The position numbers and the translations under genes are program-made. A DNA stretch of 64,000 bases from Candidatus Woesearchaeota archaeon (lineage in GTDB: Archaea > Nanobdellota > Nanobdellia > Woesearchaeales > WJKL01), in assembly GCA_019322435.1 (NCBI GenBank), contig JAHWIR010000005.1, positions 67,443 through 131,442 on the forward strand, read 5' to 3'. Below are positions 29,801 through 43,581 of this stretch, in pieces; the first letter of the stretch is position 1, and the number at the start of each line of letters is the position of its first letter. Under the pieces are notes generated by a model. That model was not told where the DNA came from. It ran no database searches and saw only the letters and a program-made list of their open reading frames with translations.

Positions 29801-32734
29801 TTTGGCGTGGCTTGGGATGGAGAGTATTTATGGTGTACTAGTCCCTCTAGAGGCAAGATGTACAAAGTTTCCACAGGAGGAACTATTTTAGACAGCTACA
29901 ACGATACAGGAGGCAGATTGTTTGACTTGGCTTGGGATGGGAAGTATTTATGGGCTTTAGATTATGATTGGGATGCTATACACAAACTAGAGAAAGACAG
30001 AATTGTGGTTTCTTTTGACAGCCCTGGAGGTAATCCAAGAGGTTTGACTTGGGATGGACAGCATATATGGAATGTAGATTCTAGTAGTGATAGATTATAT
30101 CAAATCACTACTAAAGGAGACGTTATAAGCAATTGCAATATCTTTGGTGGTGAACCTGTTGGATTGACTTGGGATGGAAATAATTTTTGGTATTCTGCTA
30201 CTGATACTGGTGGAATGTACAAGATAGATTCTAGCTGCAATATTCTTAATAGTTTTGGAAATCCTGGAGGACCAGATGCCAGTGGACTTACTTGGGATGG
30301 AAGTTATCTATGGAGTGCTAATAGTGGAAATGATAAAATCTTCAAATCTACTACTGGCGGAAGTGTTGTAGACAGCATTAATAGCCCCAATTCAAGCCCT
30401 GCTGGGCTAACTTTTGATGGTGTTTATTTCTGGAACTCGGATGGAAATGGTCAAATATATAGGCTTTTAACTGACGGGACAGTGCTTGAGAATTTTACAG
30501 GCCCTTCAACATTCATATTTGGCTTGGCTTGGCAGCCTACGGATGAAGTAATTGAATGTTATTCTGAGTCTGAGTGCGGAACAGACGAGTATGTTGGTGA
30601 AAATTACTGCATTGGAAATGATGTTTACAGGGATTATGGAGATTACAGCTGTTCTGATGCTGCAACACATAACTCTTCATGTGATTATACATCTACTCCT
30701 CAATTAAATGAAAGCTGTGGCAGCGGGGAAATTTGTTATAATGGGGGCTGCGTGGCTGTGAATTGCACTTCTGACCTGGAGTGTGGGCAGGATGTTTGGA
30801 TAGGAAATGGCTACTGCAGCAATGGAGATGTTTACCAGGTTCTTGGAAATCATAGCTGCGAAAATGTTGGAACTGTTAATGCAAGCTGCGGTTATAATGA
30901 ATATATTGCAGTAAAACTAGAATGCGGCAGTGGTTGTTCAAATGGAAAATGTGAAGGAGAAGGATATATGTGGCATTCTGATTCTGGTACTGACAAGATT
31001 TACAAGCTTGCAGAGGATTTTACTGTGGTGGAAAGCTTTGGCGCTCCTGGAGGTGCTCCTTATGATCTTACATATGACGGAGAATACCTGTGGCTTATTG
31101 AAAGTGACAGCGACAGGGTGTATAAGATAACAACAGAAGGGATTATAACTGATTATTTTAATTCTCCTGGAATAGCCCCTTTTGGACTGGAGTGGGATGG
31201 AAGCAATCTATGGCTGGCTGAGTCATCAAATGATATGATCTACAAGATGACAACTAACGGCAGTATTGTCTCTAATTTTAGCAGTCCTGGACCTTGGCCA
31301 AAAGGCTTGGCATGGGATGGCAGTTATTTGTGGCATGCTGACAATTATATAAATACTGAGATGATTTACAAGCTGGATACAAGCGGCAATGTTATTGACA
31401 GCTTTAGTTCTCCTAGTGATTCGCCGAGGGGATTGGAATGGGATGGAGAGTATTTGTGGAATGCTGATTCATATAGTGATAAGATATACAAGCTGACAAC
31501 ATCAGGGGCTGTTGTGGACAGTTTTGACAGCATTGGAGCAGTCCCAAATGGCCTTGCATGGAGTGAGGATATTAAGATAGTTTGTGTTGCTGATTCTGAC
31601 TGCGGAACAGACAAGTATATTGGAGACAAGTACTGCAATGGAAATAATGTTGTGCAGCTTTATAGAACTTATGATTGTGTGAATCCTGGAACTGTTAATT
31701 CTTCCTGCAGCCATGGTGATGCTGAAATTATCAGGGATACATGCAGTGGAAGCTGTGTTAGCGGAACATGTGATGATATTGCTTGTTATAGTGATGATGA
31801 CTGCGGAGATGATAGGTATGTTGGAAGCAAATATTGTCAATCAGGAGATGTATGGCAGGATTATAGAGAATATGATTGTGTAAATCCAAAAACTGTTAGT
31901 GCTGCCTGCTCAAGTTCTGATCAAGCTAAAAGAAGGAAAGATTGTGAATTTGGTTGTCAATCTGGTATTTGTTTGGATGAGCCGTCTGGATATGCTTGTT
32001 CAAGCAATGCTGGCTGCGGAACAGATGGTTATGTTGGAAGTCAGTATTGCAATGACGGAAATGAATGGCAGGATTGGAGAACATGGACATGCAATAATGC
32101 TGGAACAATTGATGCTTACTGCAGTTATGATGATAATCCACAGTTTAAGACAGGCTGTGCTGGAGGTTGCTTGGATGGGTGGTGTGTTGGTGCTGTATGC
32201 AATATAAATTCTGACTGCGGAACAGATGAATATATTGGAACTCCTTATTGCGATGGAAATGATGTTTATCAAGTTTATAGAGTGTGGAGTTGTGATGTTC
32301 CTGGAACTGACTCGTGCAGTTATACAGATGGCATTCAATTTAAAGAGGGTTGTGCTATTAACTGTTTGAATGGTGTTTGTGTTGATGATGACGGCAGGGG
32401 CAGCGGAGATGCTGACTTAGAAGTTTCATATTTCTTGCTGCAGTATCCTGATAATCCTGTTGCCGGAGATAGTGTTACTTTGACTTTCCATATACATAAT
32501 GTTGGCAATACTACTGTTGATGAAGCTGAGTGGAGATTAGACAGTGGAGCTGGATATTCTATTGGCGGTGTTGTAAGTGATTTAAAGGAAGGAGAAGGGA
32601 TGGGTGTTGGCAAGAAAATAACTTATTCAAGCGCTGGAACTTATTATGCAAAGGTTAAGGTTGACCCCAATAATAAAATTGAAGAATTTAATGAAGGAAA
32701 TAATGAAAAAGAATTGATTGTGGTGGTTTCATGA
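26885..32734 (+). CDS. Giant secreted adhesin-like protein (1949 aa).
   Basis: Signal peptide, then an N-terminal Cys-rich region. It carries MopE-type CDG-DNDCDG putative metal-binding motifs, ~14 ~42-aa GL.WDG.YLW..D...IYK beta-propeller blades in two blocks, ~9 ~60-aa Cys modules, and a C-terminal CARDB-like domain ending E.NEGNN. Confidence 0.7.
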   Translation: MGKKLLLAVVIVLLFSFEVYACSDDSDCADDQKCSLGSCLNIEDCLQDADCEMIDGHVRIVDVSPSICDGELVDITIEGILPFKMVDFFEIFGHSIAYPNGWIHDCFMNYNIDLQPGWSWDIIHGGETVAIGIGIYDDDGVGYDEIDSGLMTADTKINMYDDVNEGNCISVAFKHTFNNIDLSSFADGVDGDVELYAAAAGASSEQLDGTDDIDEFGAGYDDGYYSPQYNIDIDDDPPPTTDPEADPNTWTTVTTPNILGYAVVDSGSGVDHYEYQIDSTGGSWTGVGEETSFNTPSQSDGTHTVYVRAVDRCNPGDPGSVNVYINSQMNCECGGGECCSDGCNYDAAGSWCNEVELSQYDCLDGHGLGSDVYVRERYQKCTGSSAACSGTSYYDWGIKNECGPDEYCASDGDSSCTSCSTTCDDSCQSLKCHGIDPDCTSGGGSSQCSDQGGSCSGGNCVGVSCIYNPADACVDSSGCLRPGTFAWWMCDQNIQVEYACKEGNMAGDDVWEKAKNRFCSGTSPNCDGPLEWSWSQIEDCGANERCANDGDTTCTPTPAETCNGADDDYDGDVDEGLSGNLCPLQDGVCSGAREKCIGGSWQSCSSSTYGGDYQAAETRCDGLDNDCDGSVDGSLSRSCGVTWTGACTMGTESCSGGAWTGCTAVLPTTEVCDGSDSDCDGIKDGSEGFGTMDCYDAANSSYAGTGVCSYGYYECTDSGWGSDCVGDVGPEPENCVDGLDNDCDGYTDADDDDCRCDFDSDCGTDGDFIESYCSGNDLLDIYRNYSCINPGANNSCCNYTDYDVVQETCGNGCEYGRCIESGYLWVADYLNDKIHKTSKPGMILESIDISGVYLYGLTWDGEYFWYSDDATNKIYKLSKNGTVIFSFASPGPKPSGLAWDGEYLWHTDYGMDRVYKLTVDGEVVDSFSVPYAYAYGIEWDGNNLWISDYEGNINKLTTNGTVLDSIGVPTGVFGVAWDGEYLWCTSPSRGKMYKVSTGGTILDSYNDTGGRLFDLAWDGKYLWALDYDWDAIHKLEKDRIVVSFDSPGGNPRGLTWDGQHIWNVDSSSDRLYQITTKGDVISNCNIFGGEPVGLTWDGNNFWYSATDTGGMYKIDSSCNILNSFGNPGGPDASGLTWDGSYLWSANSGNDKIFKSTTGGSVVDSINSPNSSPAGLTFDGVYFWNSDGNGQIYRLLTDGTVLENFTGPSTFIFGLAWQPTDEVIECYSESECGTDEYVGENYCIGNDVYRDYGDYSCSDAATHNSSCDYTSTPQLNESCGSGEICYNGGCVAVNCTSDLECGQDVWIGNGYCSNGDVYQVLGNHSCENVGTVNASCGYNEYIAVKLECGSGCSNGKCEGEGYMWHSDSGTDKIYKLAEDFTVVESFGAPGGAPYDLTYDGEYLWLIESDSDRVYKITTEGIITDYFNSPGIAPFGLEWDGSNLWLAESSNDMIYKMTTNGSIVSNFSSPGPWPKGLAWDGSYLWHADNYINTEMIYKLDTSGNVIDSFSSPSDSPRGLEWDGEYLWNADSYSDKIYKLTTSGAVVDSFDSIGAVPNGLAWSEDIKIVCVADSDCGTDKYIGDKYCNGNNVVQLYRTYDCVNPGTVNSSCSHGDAEIIRDTCSGSCVSGTCDDIACYSDDDCGDDRYVGSKYCQSGDVWQDYREYDCVNPKTVSAACSSSDQAKRRKDCEFGCQSGICLDEPSGYACSSNAGCGTDGYVGSQYCNDGNEWQDWRTWTCNNAGTIDAYCSYDDNPQFKTGCAGGCLDGWCVGAVCNINSDCGTDEYIGTPYCDGNDVYQVYRVWSCDVPGTDSCSYTDGIQFKEGCAINCLNGVCVDDDGRGSGDADLEVSYFLLQYPDNPVAGDSVTLTFHIHNVGNTTVDEAEWRLDSGAGYSIGGVVSDLKEGEGMGVGKKITYSSAGTYYAKVKVDPNNKIEEFNEGNNEKELIVVVS

Positions 32735-33429
32735 TTAAGATAATAAGAAATGCTATTATTGGATTTTTGATAGCTTATATGTTAGGGGGCTGCGGAGATA
32801 GCGGAAGCAGTAAAAAGAAGAAAAATCCTGCGCCTAGCATAACTTTAGAGAGCATTGTGCAGGATGATTTTGAAAATAGCGGAACAGATATAACTCTTAC
32901 TGTTACTGATAATGGGGGAGTTGATTCTGTTAATGTTATTTATACTTCTATTAGCTATAATGATGTTGTAACTTTAACTGATATTGGAAATGACCAGTAT
33001 CAAACAACTTTGAATCTTGATTCTGAGACTTATAATATTTCAATAGTTGCTTATGATAACAAAGGGAAAGAAAGCACTTTGGATTTAGGGCAGGTTGTGA
33101 GATATGGAAATGAAGTTAATACTGATTCTGCATTAGATAATAAATTAAGTGATAATACTGATGGTGTAGATGTAACTATGCATTTTATGAATGACCAGTT
33201 TGATTTGGATGGTGTTATTATAAAGTATGATGCTGAAGCTGTTGTTAATGGAAAAACATATATTCTATGGGTTCAGGGAGAGAATGATGGAGAGCATTTA
33301 GTTGAGAAAGCAAAACTAGAAGAATATAATATTTATTGGATACAGATTAATCCTTTGCCTTTGCAAGATATTGATGGTGTTATAGATCAAATAGATTTAG
33401 ATGGGTGGATTCCTTATACAACTTATTAA
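32731..33429 (+). CDS. Secreted or lipoprotein-like hypothetical protein.
   Basis: N-terminus ...LGGCGDSGS. ATGA overlap with the giant gene. T/D/N-rich. Confidence 0.45.
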   Translation: MIKIIRNAIIGFLIAYMLGGCGDSGSSKKKKNPAPSITLESIVQDDFENSGTDITLTVTDNGGVDSVNVIYTSISYNDVVTLTDIGNDQYQTTLNLDSETYNISIVAYDNKGKESTLDLGQVVRYGNEVNTDSALDNKLSDNTDGVDVTMHFMNDQFDLDGVIIKYDAEAVVNGKTYILWVQGENDGEHLVEKAKLEEYNIYWIQINPLPLQDIDGVIDQIDLDGWIPYTTY

Positions 33430-34232
33430 ACTTCAATAAACTTCTGCATCCTGTTGACAAATTCTTCTGCTTCTTTGTATAATCTTTCGTATTCAGGGCC
33501 TTTTATTTCTTTTATTTCTCTATGGGTTATGCCTTTCATCAATTTGTAGAATTTGTCCATTGTTTTTGCATATTTTAGCTCCAGCTTGTGTTCTTTTACC
33601 AGCTTTTTTTCTAGTAAATCTCCTGCATGCTGCGGAGAAGGAGGGATTTCACCAATATGCATTAATGCTGCGTGTGTTGCATCGATTACAGCCCAGTAAA
33701 GGTCTAAGGCTGCCTGAAGAATATGCCATTTTGAGTTTAATAATGTTCGTGGGGCACGGCCGAAGTATACCCAGACAGATTCATTAGATGGGCGGATTCT
33801 GCCTTGGATTAGTAATGCCTGCAATGGGTCAAAGAAACCTGTGTCTATAATGGCAATTCCATCTCTTATTATGTTTATTGCAACTGGATCTCCTGCTCTT
33901 ACATATTCCCAGAAAGAGGTTATTGTCATTGAAGTTACATGCAGTCTGGTTGAGACTTTTCCAATTGTTCTTTCTATAATTAATCTATATGCTTCTATGA
34001 CATCTCTTGTCATCCTTATGGACAGGTCATCTACTACGATTAATACATCAACATCTCCTTTTTGGCCAACTGGTGTGCGTTTTCTAGCTGCTGAGCCAAA
34101 CAAGACAACTGCTTTTAAGAAATCTCCAAATTCTGTCTTAATCCTTTTTGCAAAAGACCTAGCTATTGTAAGGTCTTCATTTGGATAGTTTGTAATATTA
34201 GGACGAACTCCTTTTTTAACTTGAAATTTCAA
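33426..34232 (-). CDS. Nucleotidyltransferase-domain protein with a C-terminal helical (HEPN-like) region.
   Basis: The NTase motif GSAARKRTPVGQKGDVDVLIVVDD fits the GS...D.D pattern. The ORF-track TTG start (34295) lies inside a TATA box. A TTG at 34232, preceded by GAGGGGAG, gives the N-terminus MKFQVKKGVRP. Confidence 0.5.
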   Translation of the reverse strand: MKFQVKKGVRPNITNYPNEDLTIARSFAKRIKTEFGDFLKAVVLFGSAARKRTPVGQKGDVDVLIVVDDLSIRMTRDVIEAYRLIIERTIGKVSTRLHVTSMTITSFWEYVRAGDPVAINIIRDGIAIIDTGFFDPLQALLIQGRIRPSNESVWVYFGRAPRTLLNSKWHILQAALDLYWAVIDATHAALMHIGEIPPSPQHAGDLLEKKLVKEHKLELKYAKTMDKFYKLMKGITHREIKEIKGPEYERLYKEAEEFVNRMQKFIEV

Positions 34233-34280
34233 TATGTCTCCCCTCTTTTTAGTTAAAATAGAAAGAAATAGTATATAAAT

Positions 34281-34324
34281 GTTTGGGAATCCCAAACAAC
34301 ACTCAAAGAGCTTTGCTCTTTGAG
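34281..34324 (-). terminator. Two adjacent hairpins between 34339 and the NTase gene.
   Basis: CTCAAAGAG-CTTTG-CTCTTTGAG (9-bp stem) and GTTTGGG-AAT-CCCAAAC (7-bp stem). Confidence 0.35.
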
Positions 34325-34338
34325 CTAAAAGTTGCTAT

Positions 34339-34653
34339 TTAATATGTAACCTTCTGGATAGCTCCATACTTCTCTAATTGTTCTTCCAGCAGATGATAAT
34401 TTTTTTTGCCTACTACTGGTCCTTGAGTTAATTCTAAAGTAATAATGCAAAGACCCTCATCATTTGGCTCTGTAAACTTGGGATCATATTCTTTGTATTT
34501 ATATCCTGGTTTTTTCTCAGCAGTGACTTGGCCAGTGGCGCTAAAACCTAGTGTTATAGATATATCTTTTGGTCTAACACCTTTTTTAAGCTGTATAAAA
34601 TATGATGGGTCTACATCAAATACTGGTTCTATTAATTCCATTTTTTCTGACAT
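34339..34653 (-). CDS. Small hypothetical protein sharing an F-Q-[LV]-KKGVRP motif with the downstream NTase protein.
   Basis: 104-aa ORF immediately upstream, on the minus strand, of the NTase gene. The two are separated by two hairpins in 34281-34324. Confidence 0.4.
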   Translation of the reverse strand: MSEKMELIEPVFDVDPSYFIQLKKGVRPKDISITLGFSATGQVTAEKKPGYKYKEYDPKFTEPNDEGLCIITLELTQGPVVGKKNYHLLEEQLEKYGAIQKVTY

Positions 34654-34764
34654 AATTTATCCCTCTGATATATGAAGTTCTTTTGTTTTTTTTCAAGTTA
34701 TTATTTATATATTTTTTGTTTATTTCCATTAAGTTTATATATAAGTGAGACAAATTTATCATAT

Positions 34765-35412
34765 ATGGCAAAAGAAAGGTTAGAGGAAGTTTTGAAGAAA
34801 AAAGTAGAGCCTTTGCTAGAAGAAAGCATGCATAAGATTTTAGGGGTTACTATTTCTGAGTTTGGCAAAGATATATCTGACAAGATTGAAAGAAATCCAT
34901 TGATTGCATATGATATTGATACTGCTTTGGATTTTAAGGCTGCGAAGAAATTATTTAAGAAGCAGTTTTTGACAAGAATGCTGCAAACGCATTTTGGGAA
35001 TATATCTGCTGTTGCTCATATCACTGGATTAGATAGGAGGAGTGTCCACAGGGCTGTAAAAGAGCTGGGGATTGGCATTAAAGGGATTCGCAGGGATATG
35101 CTGAAAGCTGATTATTATAGAAAAGAAGCTGTTGGAGGCATATTGAAGAATACTCTTGAAAGTTATAAAGCAGTGATTAGGCCTGGGAAGCTGGAAGATA
35201 TGTATAAGAATGTTGATCAGATTAGTTCTGATATTGTGAAAGAACTGCCAACAATAGAGATGAGCTGGGATTCAGCTGAGAGGATGTTTGAAAAGCAGTA
35301 TTTTGAAAAGGCTTTGAAAGAGAATAAAGGCAATGTTTCTAAGACTGCAAGGAAGATTGGGTTAAGGTATGAGACATTGCATAGAAAGTTGAAGAAATTG
35401 GGGCTTAAATAG
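34765..35412 (+). CDS. DNA-binding protein with two Fis-type (HTH_8-like) helix-turn-helix motifs.
   Basis: GNISAVAHITGLDRRSVHRAVKELG and GNVSKTARKIGLRYETLHRKLKKLG both resemble Fis/NtrC C-terminal HTH. Start moved to the internal ATG at 34765 (MAKERLEEV). Confidence 0.45.
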   Translation: MAKERLEEVLKKKVEPLLEESMHKILGVTISEFGKDISDKIERNPLIAYDIDTALDFKAAKKLFKKQFLTRMLQTHFGNISAVAHITGLDRRSVHRAVKELGIGIKGIRRDMLKADYYRKEAVGGILKNTLESYKAVIRPGKLEDMYKNVDQISSDIVKELPTIEMSWDSAERMFEKQYFEKALKENKGNVSKTARKIGLRYETLHRKLKKLGLK

Positions 35413-35679
35413 TATGACTTTTTTGTCTCACTTTTAGCTATTTCTATACACGAATGTTTATAAGTCTAGAATGCTTATATATTATAGTGTGACCTATTTG
35501 TCATGCTGTAGAAATGTGATTAATATGGTATGGTTTGATTCAAGTTTAAGGTTTCAGCTGTGTGAAGCTGGAATCAGCGGTAATGTGGAACCAATAAAGC
35601 CTTGCAGTGGAAAATGCGGGCAATTAGAGATTCCATCTAGTTCTAGCTCTATTAGCGGGTTTACAGCAGGTGGGCAATA

Positions 35680-36462
35680 ATGGGATATTCAAGCGGATGC
35701 GGATATAGCTGCGGAAGTTCTGGCGCTTATTCTAGCTTAGAAAATATTGTTGGAAATTATAATGGTGGTTCTGGCGGAAGAGGCATTGATTATATGATTG
35801 CAGCAGAACCTGTTAAACAGTTTGAGCCAAGAGCAGATTATTTTGATGATGTTAAAAAAGAGGTTTATTCTGATAATTACAAAAGTGTAAAAAGAGTTTC
35901 TGAAACTTATAGTCACAGCATTTCTCATTTCCTTAATCCAGTAAGGCCTTTGAGTGTTTTTGTCGGAGAAGCTAAGGAGATAAAAGGCTTTGTAGAAGAG
36001 GCTTTTAAGGCCTTAACTGGACAGGAATTTCCAGATGATATAATTGTGAGGGTTGTTGAGGAAGAAGAGATGAAGAAGATGCATCCTGCAAATGTTTTGG
36101 GATTTGCAATAAACAGAAAACATCTTGGACTGCCTTCTGAGATTTTTGTTAAAAAGGATTTATTAGACAGATTGATGCTGACAATAGGGCATGAATTAGG
36201 GCATGTTTTGACAAGAAGATTAGCTGATAATAAAGATGAAGAAGCAAAAGCTTTTGCTTTTAGTCTGGCTTGGATGAAGAAGATCAAAGAAGAGAATATT
36301 GCTAATCTGTCCACTGTAATACAATTGGATAAGCCTGCTGAGAATGGTGTGCATAATGTTGCATTGGATTTTATTTTGAATTTAGTCAATAAAGGAAGGG
36401 AAGCAATAAAGGTTTGGATGGGGCTGGTTAAAGGTGAATTAAATGTATGTGAGTGGAGCTGA
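35680..36462 (+). CDS. ImmA/IrrE-family (M78-like) zinc metallopeptidase-like protein with a Gly/Ser/Cys-rich N-terminus.
   Basis: HELGH is followed 13 aa later by EEAKAFAFSLA, matching the HExxH...E-A-x-FA signature of ImmA/IrrE peptidases. Ribosome-binding site GGTGGG. Confidence 0.5.
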   Translation: MGYSSGCGYSCGSSGAYSSLENIVGNYNGGSGGRGIDYMIAAEPVKQFEPRADYFDDVKKEVYSDNYKSVKRVSETYSHSISHFLNPVRPLSVFVGEAKEIKGFVEEAFKALTGQEFPDDIIVRVVEEEEMKKMHPANVLGFAINRKHLGLPSEIFVKKDLLDRLMLTIGHELGHVLTRRLADNKDEEAKAFAFSLAWMKKIKEENIANLSTVIQLDKPAENGVHNVALDFILNLVNKGREAIKVWMGLVKGELNVCEWS

Positions 36463-36931
36463 AAAGGAATTAGAAGAATTGTTAAGGATGATGAGGATGT
36501 ATAGAGATTCTACTGTAAGTCCTGGAATCACTAGCAGTTTTCTTTTTGATAATATAAGGTCTTATACAAATGACAGCAAAAGTATCTCTGACAGTGTAAA
36601 AGGATTGTATGGAACAGATGGGGCAAATCATATTGATGGTTATAATTTCAGCAATAAATCTATAATGAATAGTTATGGAAAAGGAGATGTAATGAGTGTT
36701 TATGGAACAGATGGGGCAAATCATATTGATGGTTATATGAATATTAGCAATAAAGCTCTTTTAAAGGGCCTTTATAATGAAACAGGAGCTAATTATAGAA
36801 GCGATAAATCAGGAAAAAGTTCTAGTAGATTAGGTTCTGGTGGAAAGTCTGGTGGTGGAAAAACCTCTTCTAGTGGGAAGGGTTCTTCAAGCAGTTCTAG
36901 TTCTAGTGGTTCTTCTGGCGGCGGGAAATAA
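36443..36931 (+). CDS. Hypothetical protein with a duplicated GTDGANHIDGY motif and a Gly/Ser-rich tail.
   Basis: 162-aa ORF overlapping the previous gene by 20 bp. The C-terminus is GSGGKSGGGKTSSSGKGSSSSSSSSGSSGGGK. Confidence 0.35.
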   Translation: MYVSGAEKELEELLRMMRMYRDSTVSPGITSSFLFDNIRSYTNDSKSISDSVKGLYGTDGANHIDGYNFSNKSIMNSYGKGDVMSVYGTDGANHIDGYMNISNKALLKGLYNETGANYRSDKSGKSSSRLGSGGKSGGGKTSSSGKGSSSSSSSSGSSGGGK

Positions 36932-38161: not shown

Positions 38162-39136
38162 TTATTCTTTCTTTATACCAGGAAGCCATTTCTCTTTTGT
38201 TATGATTACGTTTTCATGATTCCTGATTATCTCGTGGAATTCTCTTCTTAAATCATCAATAATTTTATTCAGCTCTTGGTAATTATTTACAACTAATTCT
38301 AATTCAGCATCCCATGGTGCAATCATCTTTACATAATAAGTAGTTTGAGGAAGATTTTTTATATATTCTAATAATCTTTTTTCTTCTTCTGGGCTTATAG
38401 ATCTGTAATAAAGAATTATTTTAAAATATTCTAATCCAAGCTTGTTGTGGTCAATACTGGTTCTATAACCTATGATTATTCCTTTGTCTTCTAGATTCTT
38501 TATTTTGTTCCTCACAATCTTAACTGTAGATCCTGCTTCTTTTGCAAGCAGAGTGATTGGGATTCTTGCATTGTTTGCCAGAATATCCAGTATTTTTTGA
38601 TCGGTTTCATCTATTATATTCTTTACAATCTCTCCTGCAAAAGATTTAACTTCATAAATCTCTCCTGTCAGATATTTTTTAACATATTGCTTTGTTTCAA
38701 TCATAACACCAATTTCTTTTCTTATTATTAAGTGCTTGAATCTTGAAAAAATATCATTTTTAATCTTGTCAAACTCTATTGATGATTCTGCACTTACTCC
38801 TATTATATAATCCCATACTCCGCTGCAGATACCATGCCATGGAATTTTTTTATGGCTTCCAATATATGCAAATAGTTTGTCTTTTTCTTCAGGGATGTTT
38901 TCTAACTGCAGAAATATCTTGTAATATGTTATGCCTAGTTTTGCATGGTTGATAGATGTTATGAATTTCTCTAAAACACCCTTTTCCATTAACTGCTTTA
39001 TCCTGTATTTTGTTGCTTCTCTTGAACGTCCTATGCGTTTTGCTAATTGTGTGTTAGATATTCTTGCGTTTTTATCTAGCTCAAAAAGCAATTTTCGGTC
39101 AATTTTATCTAGTTTTACTATGTTATTATTGCCCAT
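38162..39136 (-). CDS. Lrp/AsnC-family transcriptional regulator with two tandem HTH-RAM modules.
   Basis: Two AsnC-type HTH segments (ISNTQLAKRIGRSREATKYRIKQLMEKGVL and IPITLLAKEAGSTVKIVRNKIKNLEDKGII), each followed by a RAM-like domain. The ORF-track start is a TTG; an ATG at 39136 is used here. Confidence 0.65.
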   Translation of the reverse strand: MGNNNIVKLDKIDRKLLFELDKNARISNTQLAKRIGRSREATKYRIKQLMEKGVLEKFITSINHAKLGITYYKIFLQLENIPEEKDKLFAYIGSHKKIPWHGICSGVWDYIIGVSAESSIEFDKIKNDIFSRFKHLIIRKEIGVMIETKQYVKKYLTGEIYEVKSFAGEIVKNIIDETDQKILDILANNARIPITLLAKEAGSTVKIVRNKIKNLEDKGIIIGYRTSIDHNKLGLEYFKIILYYRSISPEEEKRLLEYIKNLPQTTYYVKMIAPWDAELELVVNNYQELNKIIDDLRREFHEIIRNHENVIITKEKWLPGIKKE

Positions 39137-39305
39137 ATTAACCAATAATATCTTTTTCTTTATAAATATTGCTATTTTCGGTCAAAATATGATAGGAAGT
39201 TTGTTATATAGGTAATAACTACTAAATAGTAATAAATGAGGTGATACAAATGTTCAATCTTGCTGAATTCATAAGACAATGCGAAGTAAAATCTGTGGTG
39301 AGAAA

Positions 39306-40814
39306 ATGACAAAGAAGATTATGTTATTAAAACCGCCAATGTATACAGATGCTGTATTTGATCCAATCAGAACAACACAGCCGATTGGATTATGGTATAT
39401 TGGAAGCTATCTAAAAGAAAAAGGATACGATGTCAATATACTAGATACAGTTATGGAGGGCTTTGATAACAAAGTAATGCTAGACTCAGATGTTTGTTTT
39501 GAAGAGTTTGAAAAACAAAAATCAAAAGACTTGGAAGAACTTACTGCAGAAGAATTTGTAGACAAATATTCTCCATATGATTCAAAAGACAATATTAACA
39601 GATTTATTGTCAGGACTGGATTGTCTGATGAGGAAATCTTAGAAAGGATTAGAGAAGAGAAGCCAGACTATATTGGAATGTCTGTTTTTGCATCTTGCAA
39701 TCATGATCCTGCTGTAGATATAGCTAAGATCATTAAAAAGGAATTTCCAGATGTAAAGATAATTGCTGGAGGAGCTCATGCTACTGATATGGCTGAAACT
39801 CTGCTAAGAGATTCTGAAGGAGCAATTGATTTCTGCGGATTAGGAGATGGCCAGTATGTTTTAGAAGATATTCTTGAAGGAAGAATGCCAGAAATAGGAA
39901 TTGCTTATTTAGAGAACAATGAATTAATCTATAAAGGAGAATTCAGAAGGATGAAGATGGACGAGTTCTCATTGCTTGATCCAGATTTAGTCAAAGATAT
40001 AGAGTTACCTATGCCTGCTTCGCACACTCAAGATACTGAAGGAAGAAAATATGTTGATGTCATGTTTTCAAGAGGATGCAGAAAAAAATGTGAGTATTGC
40101 GTAGCTGGAAGCAAAGATTATGGCTATGACAAATTAAATCTGGAAACAATTGATGAGCAGCTTAAGAAACTGAAAAAAGCTGGTTATGAAGAGCTTGTTT
40201 TGCAGGATGATGATTTGCTTAGAGATAAAAATCATTTTTTCAGTGTGCTGGAATTGATGAAAAAATATGATTTCAAATGGCAGGATAATGGAGGAATAGC
40301 TATTGAAGACCTTGATACAGAAGTAGTTGACAAGATCATTGAAAATGGAAACTGCAATTCATTGTATATTCCTTTTAATCCAAGACATTTTAGAGTGAAG
40401 AGAGCTGCAAATACTGCTACTGAAAAATATTCAGGAAATGTTGAGCAGTTGAAGAGACTTAGAGATGCAGAAATCTATGTTTTTACTAGTGGCATCTATG
40501 GAACAGATGTGCAGACTAAAGAAGATATTGATGCTGAGATTGATATGTACAAACATTTGATAACAGAAGGTTATGTAGACCAAGCACTAGTGTTTGCAGT
40601 AGCCCACTTGCCTGCAACCAAGAACTATGAATTGTTTAGTGATGACATTATAAAGAAAGATGACTGGATAGGCTATTCTATATTTGTGCCTCAAGCGAAA
40701 ACAGAGACAATGAGTATAGAAGAAGTTGAAGTAGCTGTTGTAAAAGCTAATAAAGAATTCAACAAACTTCAGAAACAAGCAGGAGTATGGGGTTCAGCTT
40801 TCCCTAAAAAATAA
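39306..40814 (+). CDS. B12-binding-domain radical SAM protein.
   Basis: N-terminal cobalamin-binding-like region, then a CRKKCEYC (Cx3Cx2C) radical SAM cluster motif. An alternative upstream ATG exists at 39279; 39306 is preceded by GGTGAG. Confidence 0.7.
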   Translation: MTKKIMLLKPPMYTDAVFDPIRTTQPIGLWYIGSYLKEKGYDVNILDTVMEGFDNKVMLDSDVCFEEFEKQKSKDLEELTAEEFVDKYSPYDSKDNINRFIVRTGLSDEEILERIREEKPDYIGMSVFASCNHDPAVDIAKIIKKEFPDVKIIAGGAHATDMAETLLRDSEGAIDFCGLGDGQYVLEDILEGRMPEIGIAYLENNELIYKGEFRRMKMDEFSLLDPDLVKDIELPMPASHTQDTEGRKYVDVMFSRGCRKKCEYCVAGSKDYGYDKLNLETIDEQLKKLKKAGYEELVLQDDDLLRDKNHFFSVLELMKKYDFKWQDNGGIAIEDLDTEVVDKIIENGNCNSLYIPFNPRHFRVKRAANTATEKYSGNVEQLKRLRDAEIYVFTSGIYGTDVQTKEDIDAEIDMYKHLITEGYVDQALVFAVAHLPATKNYELFSDDIIKKDDWIGYSIFVPQAKTETMSIEEVEVAVVKANKEFNKLQKQAGVWGSAFPKK

Positions 40815-40831
40815 TTTTTTTCTTTTTTTTT
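40815..40831 (+). terminator. Oligo-T tract terminator after the radical SAM gene.
   Basis: T7-C-T9 follows the stop codon directly. A near-identical AAAAAATAATTTTTTTCTTTTTTTTAAATTC string recurs at 42310-42338. Confidence 0.4.
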
Positions 40832-41540
40832 AAATTCTTTCCCACAATGCATTAAAGAAATCTCTTTGTTTTTCTACAATGTGTTTTGAGTAGATTAAGA
40901 CGCCTCTTGGAGAATCTCCCCAAGAAATTATTGCCATCTTGCTGTTGCAGATGCCTGTATTTGCTGGAACAGGCATGTCTGTGTATTTCATCCTTAGATA
41001 TTTTCTTTTCTTGAACAAAGGTTTTAATGAGATTGGAGCAATTCCTTTTGTGATTAATCCTTTGTCTTTTCTCTTTGCATCGTATCTTTTGTAGAATTTC
41101 TGTATCTCCTTGCTTTTTTCCAGTTCAGGAGCAAAGAACAGGAACTGATCTGCTTTTTTAGCGTCTTCTATCAATGTGTTTAACAATGTCATAACTCCTT
41201 TTAATCCCTGGAACAGCTCAACTTCCTGCTTTTCTTTTGCCAGTTTCTGCTTTTCTTTTAGTTTTGGAAGCAGTTTTGCAACCTGTTTTTCCTTGTCCTT
41301 AAGATAAACCATGAAGTTGTTTGGATCTGCTGCCTGATATATCTTGAATTTGCCTTTTTTTGTGTATGAAACAAGGCCTTTTTCTATCAATCTGTTGATA
41401 TTAAAGTGAAAAACAGAGTTTTGGATGTCTGCTTTGTCTATTATGTTGCCTGCAGTGGATGGACCTAATTCTAGTAAAGCTAAATACACTTTAATTTCTC
41501 CTTGTGTCAGGCCAATATCCTCTAATATCTTTGTATCCAT
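40830..41540 (-). CDS. TrmB-family transcriptional regulator.
   Basis: N-terminal TrmB wHTH (LGLTQGEIKVYLALLELGPSTAGNI). ATG at 41540 is preferred over the ORF-track TTG because a BRE/TATA box (AAAGGTTTATAAACA on the minus strand, 41563-41578) lies about 25 bp upstream. Confidence 0.65.
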   Translation of the reverse strand: MDTKILEDIGLTQGEIKVYLALLELGPSTAGNIIDKADIQNSVFHFNINRLIEKGLVSYTKKGKFKIYQAADPNNFMVYLKDKEKQVAKLLPKLKEKQKLAKEKQEVELFQGLKGVMTLLNTLIEDAKKADQFLFFAPELEKSKEIQKFYKRYDAKRKDKGLITKGIAPISLKPLFKKRKYLRMKYTDMPVPANTGICNSKMAIISWGDSPRGVLIYSKHIVEKQRDFFNALWERI

Positions 41541-41657
41541 GGATATACTATACTTAAATTGTTTATAAACCTTTCTATTATCCTCCAATATTGTAGGATA
41601 AATATTGATATATGCCAAGTGTGATTACTATATTATAACAAAATGGAGGAAAATAAA

Positions 41658-42317
41658 ATGAAAAAACTCGAAATATTAATTGTGGAAGACAATCCAAAAC
41701 ATTTGGAAGATGTAAAGACATACATCAATGAAAAGTTAGAAGCTGGAGCTGAAATTAAAGTTGATTATGCAAGCAACTTAAAGGAAGCTGAAGATTGCAC
41801 TGCAGAGAAGAAGTATGATGGAATAATCTGTGATATATTCTTTCCAGCAGGAAATGAGAATGAAAAAGAAGTAAAGGATGATGCTTATGAGGTTCTAAAA
41901 GCAATGTATCCAGATTCTATAGGGAAAAAAAGATATCTTGGAGATCTTGCAACAGATGATGATTTTGGGCCTTTAGGAGTAATTATGGCAGAAAAAGTAA
42001 AGGATGATGTTCCTTTTGTATTCTGTACAAGTACCTATCATCATGGAGATAAAACCCACTTCGTAGTAGACTATGCTGAAAAACAAAAGATACCCTTAAT
42101 AGAAATATCGCAGAAAGTCATTAGACTTATTTCAAGTGGTGACCTTGATAAAAACGTAGAACATACAGAAAAACAATGGGACGAGGCTTATTATGAATTG
42201 ATAAAGAAAGTTGTTTGTGATAAGTTTGGAGTAAAAGATAGATATGACCTTAATGAAGAACAAGAAGCTGAATTCAAACAGTTAAGGGAAAAGTATTATC
42301 CTCCAAAGAAAAAATAA
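41658..42317 (+). CDS. Orphan CheY-like receiver-domain protein, divergent.
   Basis: ILIVEDN acidic pocket, the phospho-acceptor-like D in DGIICDIFFP, and the T/S position in FVFCTST. GGAGGA lies 7 nt upstream of the ATG at 41658. No kinase in the window. Confidence 0.45.
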   Translation: MKKLEILIVEDNPKHLEDVKTYINEKLEAGAEIKVDYASNLKEAEDCTAEKKYDGIICDIFFPAGNENEKEVKDDAYEVLKAMYPDSIGKKRYLGDLATDDDFGPLGVIMAEKVKDDVPFVFCTSTYHHGDKTHFVVDYAEKQKIPLIEISQKVIRLISSGDLDKNVEHTEKQWDEAYYELIKKVVCDKFGVKDRYDLNEEQEAEFKQLREKYYPPKKK

Positions 42318-42853: not shown

Positions 42854-42915
42854 TTTTTTCTCTTTTTCTTTCTAAACAATAAAACATTTAAAATCCATTT
42901 TCTTTGTCCTTGTAT

Positions 42916-43581
42916 ATGAACATCGATGCTTTGAAAGGGGTATTTGGCTCAACTACAAAGGCTTGCGAGATAATGTATCTGATGTATGGGAAGAAGCCTG
43001 TTGTTAGGCAGGGATTTTATGATAATGAGGTAGGCAGGGTAAAAGAGTTCTGCAGAAGGCATAATCTTGCTTATGAGACTGCTCCGTATAAAGTTATCTT
43101 GGCTGATACTCACAAGAGATATTCTAATAAAGGGCTGAAAGCAAGGATTGATGATCCTAGGAGAGGGATGTTTTTTATCTATATGTCAAAAGATGAGACA
43201 AAGGCAGCTGAGGCAAGGATTCATGAGATGAAGGATAATCATAGAGAGCTTGGATTTGACTTGGGATATCCTGAATGCTGTGTTGAATTCTTTGCTGAGA
43301 AGTGGGAAGAAAGAAGCAGGCTGGATAATGATTATATATTCCCTGCATTGCATAATTCAGATGGATTTAGGTTTTCATTTCATACAAATATTTTAAAAAG
43401 AAGCAAGGATGTTACTTTATTGAATCATTTTCCTCATTCTTTTCAGTGCGAAGAATCAATTGAGCTAGCTAAAAGACATCTGAAGATGCTGATGGAGTTA
43501 GAGCCTGGCCTGGCAATGAGGATTGTAAGGGAATTGAAGTGCAAGGTAAGGGTTGGAAGCAAGATTGTTGAGTTTTCTTAA
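42916..43581 (+). CDS. Hypothetical protein with a GYPECC motif.
   Basis: The ORF-track start is a TTG; an ATG at 42916 is preceded by a TATA-like box about 25 bp upstream. Confidence 0.4.
   Translation: MNIDALKGVFGSTTKACEIMYLMYGKKPVVRQGFYDNEVGRVKEFCRRHNLAYETAPYKVILADTHKRYSNKGLKARIDDPRRGMFFIYMSKDETKAAEARIHEMKDNHRELGFDLGYPECCVEFFAEKWEERSRLDNDYIFPALHNSDGFRFSFHTNILKRSKDVTLLNHFPHSFQCEESIELAKRHLKMLMELEPGLAMRIVRELKCKVRVGSKIVEFS

What the first reader, a model, noticed from the sequence alone, without database searches (positions are those of the whole stretch)
34765..36931. Double Fis-type HTH protein + ImmA/IrrE (M78)-like metallopeptidase + Gly/Ser-tailed protein: an unusual three-gene module
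Gene 1 (34765-35412) carries two HTH_8-like motifs, which are sigma-54-activator/Fis style and uncommon in archaea. Gene 2 (35680-36462) has HELGH-13 aa-EEAKAFAFSLA, the ImmA/IrrE signature. Such peptidases usually pair with an HTH repressor that they cleave in response to stress or phage signals. Gene 2 starts with a Gly/Ser/Cys low-complexity N-terminus. Gene 3 overlaps it and ends in a long GS-rich tail with a duplicated GTDGANHIDGY motif. The arrangement suggests a sensor/derepression switch, possibly of horizontally acquired origin. It sits next to an MNT/HEPN-like gene and the giant adhesin.
Basis: partly seen in the sequence, partly recalled or inferred. Interest (0 to 1): 0.55.

Follow-up and report, generated by a model that had tools for sequence, protein, structure and literature searches.

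The report
Fis-type regulator plus orphan zinc peptidase
In this Woesearchaeota (DPANN archaeon) chromosome, a regulator built from two bacterial-style Fis/NtrC DNA-binding domains and a zinc peptidase of an undescribed family carry the same conserved DNA control site in their promoters, so they probably form a small lineage-wide regulatory circuit and not a mobile ImmA/IrrE-type module.

Summary
The HELGH-to-EEAKA spacer is 11 aa, not 13. An annotated 51-aa gene lies between genes 1 and 2.

Gene 1 (215 aa) is a tandem of two HTH_8 modules. Gene 2 (260 aa) has a disordered Gly/Ser/Tyr/Cys-rich N-terminus and a confidently modelled zincin core (HELGH helix, Glu helix, PAxNGxH). It matches no curated family. 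Similarity to ImmA/IrrE (M78) is only sub-threshold: hhalign probability 44%, Foldseek E 0.04-0.12. The family is sharply bounded (413 representatives among 1.84 billion proteins), confined to Woesearchaeota/Nanoarchaeota and absent from viral contigs.

The trio is not a conserved unit. Gene 1 lies within 700 nt of gene 2 in 5 of 61 loci, and gene 3 evolves fast.

A new result links genes 1 and 2. An 18-bp dyad (TATGAC-N6-GTCTCA) has three strong matches in the 64-kb window: one between the TATA box and ATG of gene 1, and two flanking the gene 2 TATA box. Across 790 kb of related loci, 80 of 85 strong sites lie upstream of these genes or their operon partners.

Best reading: gene 1 is an autoregulated transcription factor controlling the peptidase operon. 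Proteolytic derepression is possible but untested.

The parts
34734..34745 (+). TATA-like box (TTTATATATAAG) of the gene 1 promoter
   Evidence: Sequence read. It lies 19 nt before the ATG, which fits a leaderless transcript.
34744..34765 (-). Dyad operator copy in the gene 1 promoter (core TGAGAC-AAATTT-ATCATA, 34746-34763), between the TATA box and the ATG
   Evidence: PWM hit of 20.7 bits. The PWM was built only from sites upstream of gene 2 in other genomes. The same site at the same position occurs upstream of gene 1 orthologues in L011, L012, L014, L020, L023, L090 and L092; in L091 it lies upstream of the TATA box instead.
34765..35412 (+). Gene 1: 215-aa protein made of two Fis/NtrC-type HTH_8 modules (about residues 57-103 and 168-214). 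Proposed operator-binding regulator.
   Evidence: Pfam HTH_8, E 8.7e-16, two stretches. Internal repeat, E 7e-11. NtrX/NtrC DNA-binding domains in the PDB. There are 356 homologue clusters at 51-89% identity, all from Woesearchaeota.
35411..35432 (+). Dyad operator site 1 of the gene 2 promoter (core TATGACTTTTTTGTCTCA, 35413-35430), upstream of the TATA box
   Evidence: PWM hit of 28.0 bits and pattern match. Conserved in orthologous promoters.
35457..35487 (+). Two TATA-like elements (TTTATAAG at 35457-35464; CTTATATATTATAG at 35474-35487) between the two dyads
   Evidence: Sequence read. The position is conserved in the promoters printed.
35486..35507 (+). Dyad operator site 2 (core TGTGACCTATTTGTCATG, 35488-35505), directly downstream of the TATA region and 19 nt before the small ORF
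   Evidence: PWM hit of 19.1 bits and pattern match. In L012 both copies are perfect palindromes, TGTGAC-N6-GTCACA.
35525..35680 (+). Small gene of 51 aa (MVWFDSSLRFQLCEAGISG...SISGFTAGGQ). Its stop codon overlaps the ATG of gene 2 (TAATG).
   Evidence: Annotated as KY332_01700. Homologous 37-53-aa ORFs occupy the same position in 10 related loci. Substitutions follow a coding pattern: differences at codon positions 1/2/3 are 362/267/431, with TCA/AGC serine switches.
35680..35904 (+). Gene 2, N-terminal Gly/Ser/Tyr/Cys-rich region (residues 1-75), predicted to be disordered
   Evidence: pLDDT is below 50 over most of residues 1-68. The composition and several Tyr residues are conserved across the family.
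35905..36462 (+). Gene 2, zincin core (residues 76-260). HELGH at 36190-36204, E187/E188 at 36238-36243, PAxNGxH at 36334-36354.
   Evidence: AlphaFold2 model with pLDDT 90.1 and pTM 0.88. Topology: helix, three strands, HExxH helix, Glu helix. Invariant residues are G170 H171 E172 G174 H175 E187 E188 A189 K190 A191 W198 N222 H225.
36443..36931 (+). Gene 3: 162-aa protein with an N-terminal EKELEELLRMMR helix, two copies of YGTDGANHIDGY and a Gly/Ser tail ending in GGGK. It overlaps gene 2 by 20 nt.
   Evidence: Translation. The word-indexed database search finds only the protein itself. tblastn finds 34-38% identical ORFs downstream of gene 2 in L012, L013 and L017. Analogous ORFs with the same N-terminal helix and a Gly/Ser tail occur in L004 and L018.

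Best explanation
This is a chromosomal regulatory circuit found across the Woesearchaeota. It is not a mobile three-gene module.

Gene 1 encodes a transcription factor made of two non-identical Fis/NtrC-type HTH_8 modules in one chain. I infer that it binds, as a built-in pseudo-dimer, an 18-bp dyad (consensus TATGAC-W6-GTCTCA; perfect form TGTGAC-N6-GTCACA).

One dyad copy lies between the TATA box and the ATG of gene 1. A bound protein there would block initiation, giving autorepression (inferred). Two copies flank the TATA region of the operon made of the 51-aa gene, gene 2 and gene 3. In more distant relatives a single copy sits 14 nt upstream of the TATA box, which is the position expected of an activator or of a protein that occludes the BRE element.

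Gene 2 encodes a cytosolic zinc metallopeptidase of a previously undescribed gluzincin family. I infer that H171 and H175 bind zinc together with E187 or E188, that E172 is the catalytic base, and that H225 is a likely transition-state residue. The core is preceded by a disordered Gly/Ser/Tyr/Cys-rich N-terminus.

Shown here: the domains, the predicted fold, the operator and its specificity, and the phyletic distribution. Inferred: that gene 1 is the protein that binds the dyad, the sign of the regulation, the peptidase activity and its substrates.
For: - HTH_8 occurs twice in gene 1.
- A 22-nt PWM built from 51 sites upstream of gene 2 in other genomes gives only three hits of at least 12 bits in the 64-kb window: the gene 1 promoter and two in the gene 2 promoter. 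All three score at least 19 bits, where shuffled windows give a mean of 0.025 such hits.
- In 790 kb of related loci, 85 sites score at least 17 bits. Eighty of them lie directly upstream of gene 2 (47), of small proteins co-transcribed with it (29), or of gene 1 (6).
- Site density is 1.40 per kb within 350 nt upstream of gene 2 and 0.039 per kb elsewhere.
- 45 of 73 species-level loci have at least one site within 1.1 kb upstream of gene 2.
- The dyad lies next to the ATG of gene 1 orthologues in 8 further loci, including loci where gene 2 is 3-10 kb away.
- In a second clade, larger HTH_8 proteins (309-391 aa) are encoded within gene clusters that begin with a dyad and lie next to gene 2.
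- The half-site spacing is 12 bp centre to centre. From my own knowledge, this is close to that of NtrC/Fis-type dimer sites.
- The zincin core is modelled with confidence and has invariant HExxH, EE and H residues.
Against: - There is no direct evidence that the gene 1 protein binds the dyad. Another regulator could bind it, with gene 1 as one more target.
- Gene 1 is within 6 kb of gene 2 in only 12 of 61 loci, and within 700 nt in 5.
- 28 of 73 loci lack a strong site upstream of gene 2.
- Peptidase activity is inferred only from motifs and a predicted structure. No solved structure matches significantly.
- The biological role of the regulon is unknown.
Confidence: 0.55

Rival explanations
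1. Proteolytic derepression switch, working like ImmR/ImmA, DdrO/IrrE or CapH/CapP. The gene 1 protein represses its own promoter and the gene 2 operon. On a stress signal the gene 2 peptidase cleaves it, perhaps in the linker between the two HTH modules, and the regulon is induced.
For: - Regulator and peptidase share one operator and are adjacent here and in some relatives.
- In ICEBs1-type systems the peptidase gene is also under the repressor's control (the family is described in 10.1101/2022.04.27.489752).
- Profile-profile comparison with 11 genuine phage ImmA proteins gives probability 43.6% and P 2.4e-4 over 92 columns, in the correct order of structural elements. An unrelated control profile gives 0.3%.
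- There are weak but recurrent hits to CapP (10 of 26 members, best E 1.4e-3) and to the phage metallo-protease families phrog_87 and phrog_2439.
- Foldseek gives probability 0.89-0.93 to 'IrrE N-terminal-like' viral proteins.
Against: - PF06114 gives no hit at E<=1 in any of 26 members.
- PDB searches by sequence and by fold do not find IrrE or CapP.
- The spacer from HExxH to Glu is 11-12 residues, against 23 in phi105 ImmA and 28 in CapP (H100 to E129).
- There is no GAF or other sensor domain.
- The partner is HTH_8, not XRE. In my sample of 10 phage M78 genes, 7 had a gene annotated as a regulator or HTH protein directly upstream. Gene 1 is directly upstream of gene 2 in only about 8% of loci.
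- In single-site promoters the dyad lies upstream of the TATA box, a position that suits activation as well as repression.
Confidence: 0.17
2. Genes 1 and 2 are both targets of a different, unidentified regulator that binds the dyad. Gene 1 is a transcription factor or nucleoid protein with other targets.
For: - The evidence that gene 1 binds the dyad is purely associative.
- Gene 1 is unusually conserved for a specific regulator (up to 89% identity, mean column identity 64%). That level would also fit a general DNA-binding protein like Fis.
Against: - No other DNA-binding gene recurs next to the dyad-controlled genes. HTH_8 proteins do, in two independent gene arrangements.
- A site in a factor's own promoter that overlaps the initiation region is the classic mark of an autoregulated factor.
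Confidence: 0.15
3. The peptidase mainly processes the small low-complexity proteins transcribed with it: the 51-aa Cys-containing peptide, gene 3, and in other clades the sp and p120/p147 proteins. This would be peptide or protein maturation, for example trimming at Gly-aromatic or C-terminal GG-K/Q/R sites. Gene 1 would only set the expression level.
For: - Gene 2 is almost always flanked by small, fast-evolving ORFs with Gly/Ser/Tyr-rich tails or repeated [IS]-x-G-[FYW] motifs.
- The overlapping TAATG stop/start suggests translational coupling with the 51-aa gene.
- The peptidase's own N-terminus has a similar composition.
Against: - The partner proteins differ between clades and share no single conserved motif.
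- No maturation-type enzymes are consistently linked.
- The idea rests on composition only.
- It is compatible with the best explanation rather than exclusive of it.
Confidence: 0.1
4. Chance neighbourhood: three unrelated genes that happen to be adjacent in a syntenic chromosomal region.
For: - Adjacency of gene 1 and gene 2 is uncommon (5 of 61 loci).
- The order of neighbours varies widely.
Against: Both promoters share the dyad, the window has no other copy in 64 kb, and 80 of 85 strong sites in related DNA lie at this gene set.
Confidence: 0.03

Closest known systems
ImmR/ImmA (ICEBs1, phage phi105), DdrO/IrrE (Deinococcus) and CapH/CapP (CBASS): M78/COG2856 metallopeptidase plus the HTH repressor it cleaves
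   Same: - An HTH DNA-binding protein and a small HExxH zinc peptidase are encoded near each other.
- The regulator's palindromic operator lies in its own promoter and in front of the peptidase operon.
- The Glu-helix motif is similar: EEAKAFAFSLA here, EVEANTFAVELL in phi105 ImmA.
- Profile and fold similarity are weak.
   Different: - No match to the curated M78 model.
- The spacer between HExxH and Glu is 11-12 residues, against 23-28.
- No GAF or sensor domain; instead there is a disordered Gly/Ser/Tyr/Cys-rich N-terminus.
- The partner is a tandem HTH_8 protein, not an XRE repressor.
- The genes are usually not adjacent.
- The system is chromosomal and lineage-wide in an archaeal group, and is absent from viral contigs.
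- Cleavage has not been tested.
Fis and the C-terminal DNA-binding domains of NtrC/NtrX-type sigma-54 activators (Pfam HTH_8)
   Same: - Each half of gene 1 matches HTH_8, including the preceding helix used for dimerisation in NtrC-type domains.
- The proposed target is a dyad whose half-sites are about one helical turn apart.
   Different: - There is no AAA+ or receiver domain.
- Two HTH_8 modules are fused in one 215-aa chain.
- The host is an archaeon, which has no sigma-54. A 2010 survey listed HTH_8 among DNA-binding domains restricted to Bacteria (PMC2937223).
Minimal zincins: SprT-like proteases, M48/M56 catalytic cores and 'minigluzincins'
   Same: - Compact fold: helix, three-stranded sheet, HExxH helix, and directly following helix that carries a Glu.
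- The best Foldseek matches in BFVD are a SprT-like protein and small unnamed zincins (E 0.011-0.016, TM 0.41-0.54).
- Weak Pfam M48 hits in 9 of 26 members.
   Different: - All matches fall below family thresholds.
- No membrane segments, unlike M48/M56.
- SprT-type zincins use a third His, not a Glu (my own knowledge).
- The family has its own invariant PAxNGxH motif.
Autoregulated archaeal transcription factors whose operators overlap the initiation site, for example Lrp-, TrmB- or Phr-type regulators (comparison from my own knowledge)
   Same: - Operator between the TATA box and the start of the factor's own gene.
- Operators upstream or downstream of the TATA box at target promoters.
- Small regulon.
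- Leaderless transcripts.
   Different: The DNA-binding domain is of the bacterial Fis/NtrC type and is duplicated in one chain. No ligand-binding domain is evident.

Membership tests
Peptidase M78 / ImmA-IrrE (Pfam PF06114, COG2856) | Match to the curated family model at its gathering score | tested here: not met
   PF06114 does not appear even at E<=1 for gene 2 or for any of 26 diverse homologues. NCBIfam gives no hit.
Peptidase M78 / ImmA-IrrE (Pfam PF06114, COG2856) | HExxH followed by a Glu zinc ligand in an E-x-EAN-x-FA helix about 23-28 residues later | tested here: inconclusive
   HELGH and EEAKAFA are present and invariant, and hhalign aligns them with the ImmA motif. The spacer is only 11-12 residues, against 23 in phi105 ImmA and H100 to E129 in CapP.
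Peptidase M78 / ImmA-IrrE (Pfam PF06114, COG2856) | Profile-profile or fold similarity to genuine members | tested here: inconclusive
   hhalign against 11 phage ImmA proteins gives probability 43.6% and P 2.4e-4; the unrelated control gives 0.3%. Foldseek against the PDB gives no hit with E below 0.1 and no IrrE or CapP among the 50 matches listed. In BFVD, 'IrrE N-terminal-like' proteins score E 0.039 and 0.12 with probability 0.93 and 0.89, no better than SprT-like proteins.
Peptidase M78 / ImmA-IrrE (Pfam PF06114, COG2856) | Gene directly next to an XRE-family HTH repressor that is its substrate | tested here: not met
   The neighbouring protein is HTH_8, and its only Cro/C1-type hit has E 0.11. 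Gene 1 lies within 700 nt of gene 2 in 5 of 61 loci. By contrast, 7 of 10 sampled phage M78 genes had a gene annotated as a regulator or HTH protein directly upstream.
Peptidase M78 / ImmA-IrrE (Pfam PF06114, COG2856) | Signal-dependent cleavage of the partner repressor | not testable with these tools
   This needs an in vitro or in vivo cleavage assay.
Fis/NtrC-type HTH (Pfam HTH_8, PF02954) | Match to the curated model above the gathering score | tested here: met
   57.8 bits against a cut-off of 22, with two stretches. All listed homologues carry PF02954. PDB hits to NtrX/NtrC DNA-binding domains have E 2.9e-5 to 3e-3.
Sigma-54 enhancer-binding proteins (NtrC family) | Central AAA+ sigma-54 interaction domain and usually a receiver or sensor domain | tested here: not met
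   The protein is 215 aa. NCBIfam NtrX/NtrC/NorR models match only their C-terminal 50-80 positions, far below the cut-offs. Pfam gives no AAA+ hit.
Peptidase M48 (PF01435) | Match to the curated model at its gathering score | tested here: not met
   Gene 2 scores 12.4 bits against a cut-off of 20.3. Nine of 26 homologues give weak hits, the best at E 6.5e-4.
Zincin/gluzincin metallopeptidase fold (broad class) | HExxH on a helix that follows a small mixed sheet, with a Glu ligand on the next helix | tested here: met
   The AlphaFold2 model (pLDDT 90.1, pTM 0.88) has helix 98-113, strands 121-126, 139-144 and 153-158, HExxH helix 162-176 and Glu helix 184-205. The recognisable weak Foldseek PDB hits are gluzincins of families M2, M3, M4 and M32. 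Metal binding itself was not tested.

The most novel reading that the evidence does not exclude
Woesearchaeota run an archaeal counterpart of the ImmR/ImmA, DdrO/IrrE and CapH/CapP proteolytic derepression switch, built from different parts. A single-chain double Fis-type HTH repressor would be cleaved by a very divergent, shortened ImmA-like zincin. Together they would control a small, lineage-wide stress regulon of low-complexity small proteins. This would be the first such switch in DPANN archaea and the first to use an HTH_8 substrate.
Probability: 0.15. Interest if true: 0.72.

Novelty: new variant of a known kind. Interest (0 to 1): 0.5.

Why it matters
Gene regulation in DPANN archaea is almost unexplored, because these organisms are mostly known only from metagenomes. 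This analysis supplies three testable items:
- An operator sequence with exact positions.
- A candidate regulator of a type thought to be bacterial, fused into a pseudo-dimer.
- A conserved target: an orphan zinc-peptidase family with 413 representatives at 50% identity, no Pfam model and no structural relative.

If the regulator binds the dyad, this would be one of the few defined regulons in Woesearchaeota. If the peptidase also cleaves the regulator, the ImmA/IrrE-type logic would extend to archaea with non-homologous or extremely diverged parts. The peptidase family merits its own family model either way.

Tried and rejected
- **M78 membership by curated models and solved structures: rejected.** Pfam and NCBIfam give no M78 hit. 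PDB sequence and profile searches give nothing. Foldseek against the PDB, with the full-length model and with the trimmed model, gives no match with E below 0.1.
- **Mobile, defence or viral origin: rejected.** PADLOC and PHROGs give only sub-threshold hits. IMG/VR holds one partial hit, which is the unrelated zincin domain of a phage polyvalent protein. Composition across the window shows no island.
- **A conserved three-gene unit: rejected** by the contexts of P0002, P0024, P0062 and P0088 and by 78 species-level loci.
- **A structured RNA in the 268-nt spacer between genes 1 and 2: not supported.** Rfam gives no match. The conservation is explained by the operators plus a coding 51-aa ORF.
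- **A RiPP-like biosynthetic cluster** (small Cys peptide, peptidase, MFS transporter, B12-radical-SAM enzyme): considered and not supported. The flanking genes are a mixed chromosomal neighbourhood that includes RuBisCO and several regulators, and it is not conserved with gene 2.
- **Function of the partner genes: no result.** Literature and PDB searches for DUF483 were uninformative. Pfam and NCBIfam name none of the small partner proteins.
- **Gene 3 homologues:** the word-indexed search found only the protein itself.
Full report
**Source and observation.** The window is part of a 139,878-bp contig of a Candidatus Woesearchaeota archaeon, a DPANN lineage. The products of genes 1, 2 and 3 are 100% identical to KY332_01695, KY332_01705 and KY332_01710. 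The ORFs are at the stated coordinates.

Gene 1 (34765-35412, 215 aa) matches Pfam HTH_8 at 57.8 bits in two stretches. Its halves align with each other (E 7e-11). Its closest solved relatives are the DNA-binding domains of NtrX and NtrC-family activators.

Gene 2 (35680-36462, 260 aa) contains HELGH (171-175) and EEAKAFAFSLA (187-197). The spacer between them is 11 residues, not 13.

Gene 3 (36443-36931) overlaps gene 2 by 20 nt. It has two copies of YGTDGANHIDGY and a Gly/Ser tail.

Its stop codon overlaps the ATG of gene 2.

**What gene 2 is.** It matches no curated family. Pfam gives only M48 at E 0.14, and NCBIfam gives nothing. Searches of PDB sequences with the single protein and with a profile find nothing meaningful.

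It has 630 homologue clusters, all unnamed and all from Woesearchaeota or Nanoarchaeota. All 120 best hits carry HE..H-x(8-16)-EEAKA. In a 107-sequence alignment the invariant residues include G170, H171, E172, G174, H175, E187, E188, A189, K190, A191, W198, N222 and H225.

AlphaFold2 leaves most of residues 1-68 at pLDDT below 50. It models residues 76-260 with pLDDT 90.1 and pTM 0.88 as helix, three strands, HExxH helix, Glu helix, a PAxNGxH loop and two further helices. That is a compact gluzincin-type arrangement.

Foldseek finds no PDB structure with E below 0.1. The weak hits that are recognisable are gluzincins of families M2, M3, M4 and M32, and neither IrrE nor CapP appears among the 50 matches listed. 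Against predicted viral structures the best matches are small zincins:
- an unnamed 136-aa protein and a SprT-like protein, E 0.011-0.013;
- two 'IrrE N-terminal-like' proteins, E 0.039 and 0.12, probability 0.93 and 0.89, target-normalised TM-score 0.45 and 0.59;
- an M48 protein, E 0.098.

**Direct test of the ImmA/IrrE idea.** I took the ImmA protein of phage phi105 and ten phage homologues annotated as ImmA/IrrE, DUF955 or metallo-protease, or left unnamed. I compared their profile with the gene 2 family profile.

hhalign gives probability 43.6% and P 2.4e-4 over 92 columns. The structural elements line up in the right order, and EEAKAFA aligns with E-x-EAN-x-FA. An unrelated profile gives 0.3%.

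Sub-threshold hits to CapP (10 of 26 members) and to phage metallo-protease families also recur. A very remote relationship to M78 is therefore possible. Membership by any curated criterion is not met, and the HExxH-to-Glu spacer is roughly half the M78 length.

An exhaustive HMMER profile search of 1.84 billion representatives finds only 413 proteins at E<=1e-3, of which 293 are at E<=1e-30. The family is small, sharply bounded and isolated in sequence space.

**Distribution and synteny.** Relatives of gene 2 occur in 306 species-representative genomes, all Woesearchaeota or Nanoarchaeota. Some records are labelled 'uncultured Methanosarcinales' but sit among Woesearchaeota sequences. The family is absent from 2.9 million viral contigs, apart from one unrelated polyvalent-protein zincin.

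Gene 1 has 356 homologue clusters at 51-89% identity. The trio is not a unit:
- Gene 1 is within the fetched locus in 12 of 61 cases and within 700 nt of gene 2 in 5.
- The most frequent neighbour is a DUF483 protein downstream, in 28 of 68 loci. In the window this gene lies 6 kb away at 42904-43581.
- Gene 3 has recognisable relatives only in close genomes.

A horizontally acquired module is therefore not supported.

**The new finding: a shared operator.** The 268-nt spacer upstream of gene 2 is conserved in relatives. It contains two copies of a dyad, TATGAC-W6-GTCTCA. In L012 both copies are perfect TGTGAC-N6-GTCACA palindromes. The copies flank TATA-like elements.

The dyad is 36-fold enriched within 350 nt upstream of gene 2 across 83 loci: 1.40 per kb against 0.039 per kb elsewhere. 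I built a 22-nt PWM from 51 such sites in other genomes and scanned the 64-kb window. It gives only three hits of at least 12 bits:
- 35411-35432, 28.0 bits;
- 35486-35507, 19.1 bits;
- 34744-34765, 20.7 bits.

The third hit lies between the TATA box and the ATG of gene 1. Shuffled windows give a mean of 0.025 hits at 19 bits or more.

The gene 1 site recurs upstream of the orthologues in L011, L012, L014, L020, L023, L090, L091 and L092. In seven of these it is at the same position; in L091 it lies upstream of the TATA box. The set includes genomes where gene 2 is 3-10 kb away.

In 790 kb of related DNA, 85 sites score at least 17 bits. Eighty of them lie directly upstream of gene 2 (47), of a conserved 70-96-aa protein, here called sp, that is co-transcribed with or next to gene 2 (20), of the p120/p147 small proteins that head p120-sp-gene 2 operons (9), or of gene 1 (6).

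In many distant relatives a single site ends 45-46 nt before the ATG of gene 2. It is followed after 14 nt by a TATA box and about 27 nt later by the ATG, which implies leaderless transcripts and a site just upstream of the BRE/TATA elements.

In another clade the dyad precedes a cluster of sp, a 221-aa protein and a 309-391-aa protein that contains HTH_8, located beside gene 2. An HTH_8 gene is thus under dyad control in two independent arrangements.

**Mechanism.**

*Shown:* the domain content, the predicted zincin fold with an intact catalytic motif set, the operator with its positions and specificity, and the lineage-wide chromosomal distribution.

*Inferred:*
- The gene 1 protein, a single-chain pseudo-dimer of two non-identical HTH_8 modules, binds the slightly asymmetric dyad. 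The half-sites are about 12 bp apart, as for NtrC/Fis-type dimers (my own knowledge).
- It represses its own promoter, because the site overlaps the initiation region.
- It controls the operon of the 51-aa gene, gene 2 and gene 3.

I give this model a confidence of 0.55.

Whether gene 2 in turn cleaves the gene 1 protein, as ImmA cleaves ImmR, is possible (about 0.17) but untested. The missing sensor domain, the non-XRE partner and the loose linkage count against it. Two further alternatives remain open: an unknown regulator binds the dyad (0.15), or the peptidase processes the co-transcribed low-complexity proteins (0.10, and compatible with the main model). Chance adjacency is essentially excluded.

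**Novelty.** HTH_8 was listed among DNA-binding domains restricted to Bacteria in a 2010 survey (PMC2937223). Full-text searches found no paper that combines Woesearchaeota, a metallopeptidase and a transcriptional regulator.

The parts are of known kinds: a zincin, a Fis-type HTH and an autoregulated operator. The combination is a new variant. It consists of a fused double HTH_8 factor in an archaeon, an orphan peptidase family, and a defined DPANN regulon that may work like the ImmA/IrrE switch. I score interest at 0.5. This is a solid and testable comparative-genomics lead, not a categorical surprise.

Noticed in passing
window 35525-35680: A 51-aa gene (MVWFDSSLRFQLCEAGISG...SISGFTAGGQ; KY332_01700) lies between the operator and gene 2, with a TAATG stop/start overlap. 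Homologues of 37-53 aa with repeated C-x-x-G-I-[SD]-G-[FW]-like motifs occupy the same position in 10 related loci. More distant clades lack it.
   Followed up: partly
L023, L025-L029, L037, L040, L049, L053, L057-L089 (for example L059 2784-3071; L066 613-840): A strongly conserved 70-96-aa protein (..DEQIGFHKGALsTLAKEREE..IVEQLMQMH..LKELGVDLE..) lies next to gene 2 homologues in 23 of 83 loci and is preceded by the same dyad. It matches no Pfam or NCBIfam family. The 64-kb window has no copy.
   Followed up: partly
window 42904-43581; L001 5826-6416; L004 6262-6921: A DUF483 (PF04467) protein with GYPxCC and HFPCSxxCxxS motifs is the commonest downstream neighbour of the peptidase (28 of 68 loci). 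In the window it lies 6 kb downstream. Its function is unknown, and no PDB or literature lead was found.
   Followed up: partly
window 33426-34295 (-) and 34339-34653 (-); L066 1764-3620; L072 6858-8789: A nucleotidyltransferase-domain protein of 266-289 aa, up to 83% identical between genomes, is transcribed divergently from gene 1 in the window and in five related loci (L011, L012, L014, L090, L092). In another clade a 620-640-aa protein with a similar nucleotidyltransferase domain follows the peptidase gene directly. The gene 1 dyad lies about 80-113 nt from the divergent gene's start and may also affect it.
   Followed up: partly
L029 4157-5086; L075 2744-3919; L025 8398-9453: Larger proteins (309-391 aa) that contain HTH_8 are encoded at the end of dyad-preceded gene clusters next to the peptidase in a distant Woesearchaeota clade. 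They may be alternative forms of the regulator.
   Followed up: partly
window 38162-39145 (-), 40830-41618 (-), 41643-42317 (+): Several other regulator genes cluster nearby: a tandem double Lrp/AsnC-type HTH protein (327 aa), a TrmB-family regulator and a protein with a partial receiver domain. None has the dyad in its promoter.
   Followed up: no
window 26885-32734: A 1949-aa secreted Cys-rich protein has many repeated NHL/YD-like 'WDGxxLW' blades and Cys-knot-like modules. Giant surface proteins also flank the regulator or peptidase genes in other genomes, for example a product of over 5,400 aa in L091 and one of 1,859 aa in L008.
   Followed up: no
window 23109-24374 and 39279-40814: A RuBisCO large-subunit homologue (E 7e-93) and a B12-binding radical SAM enzyme lie in the same neighbourhood. 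This fits a core chromosomal region rather than an island.
   Followed up: no
L013, L017, L021 and many other loci: Many GTDB representative records that carry these Woesearchaeota-specific genes are titled 'uncultured Methanosarcinales archaeon'. The label is probably a taxonomic mislabel from the submitting pipeline.
   Followed up: no
L093 (IMGVR_UViG_3300008267_000498) 2395-2607: The only viral-contig match is a zincin domain (TLGHELGHIV...DEKTRTAVFDEYLAWL) inside an ORF of more than 1,868 aa that runs off both ends of the fetched DNA and resembles a phage polyvalent protein. It is not a member of the gene 2 family.
   Followed up: yes
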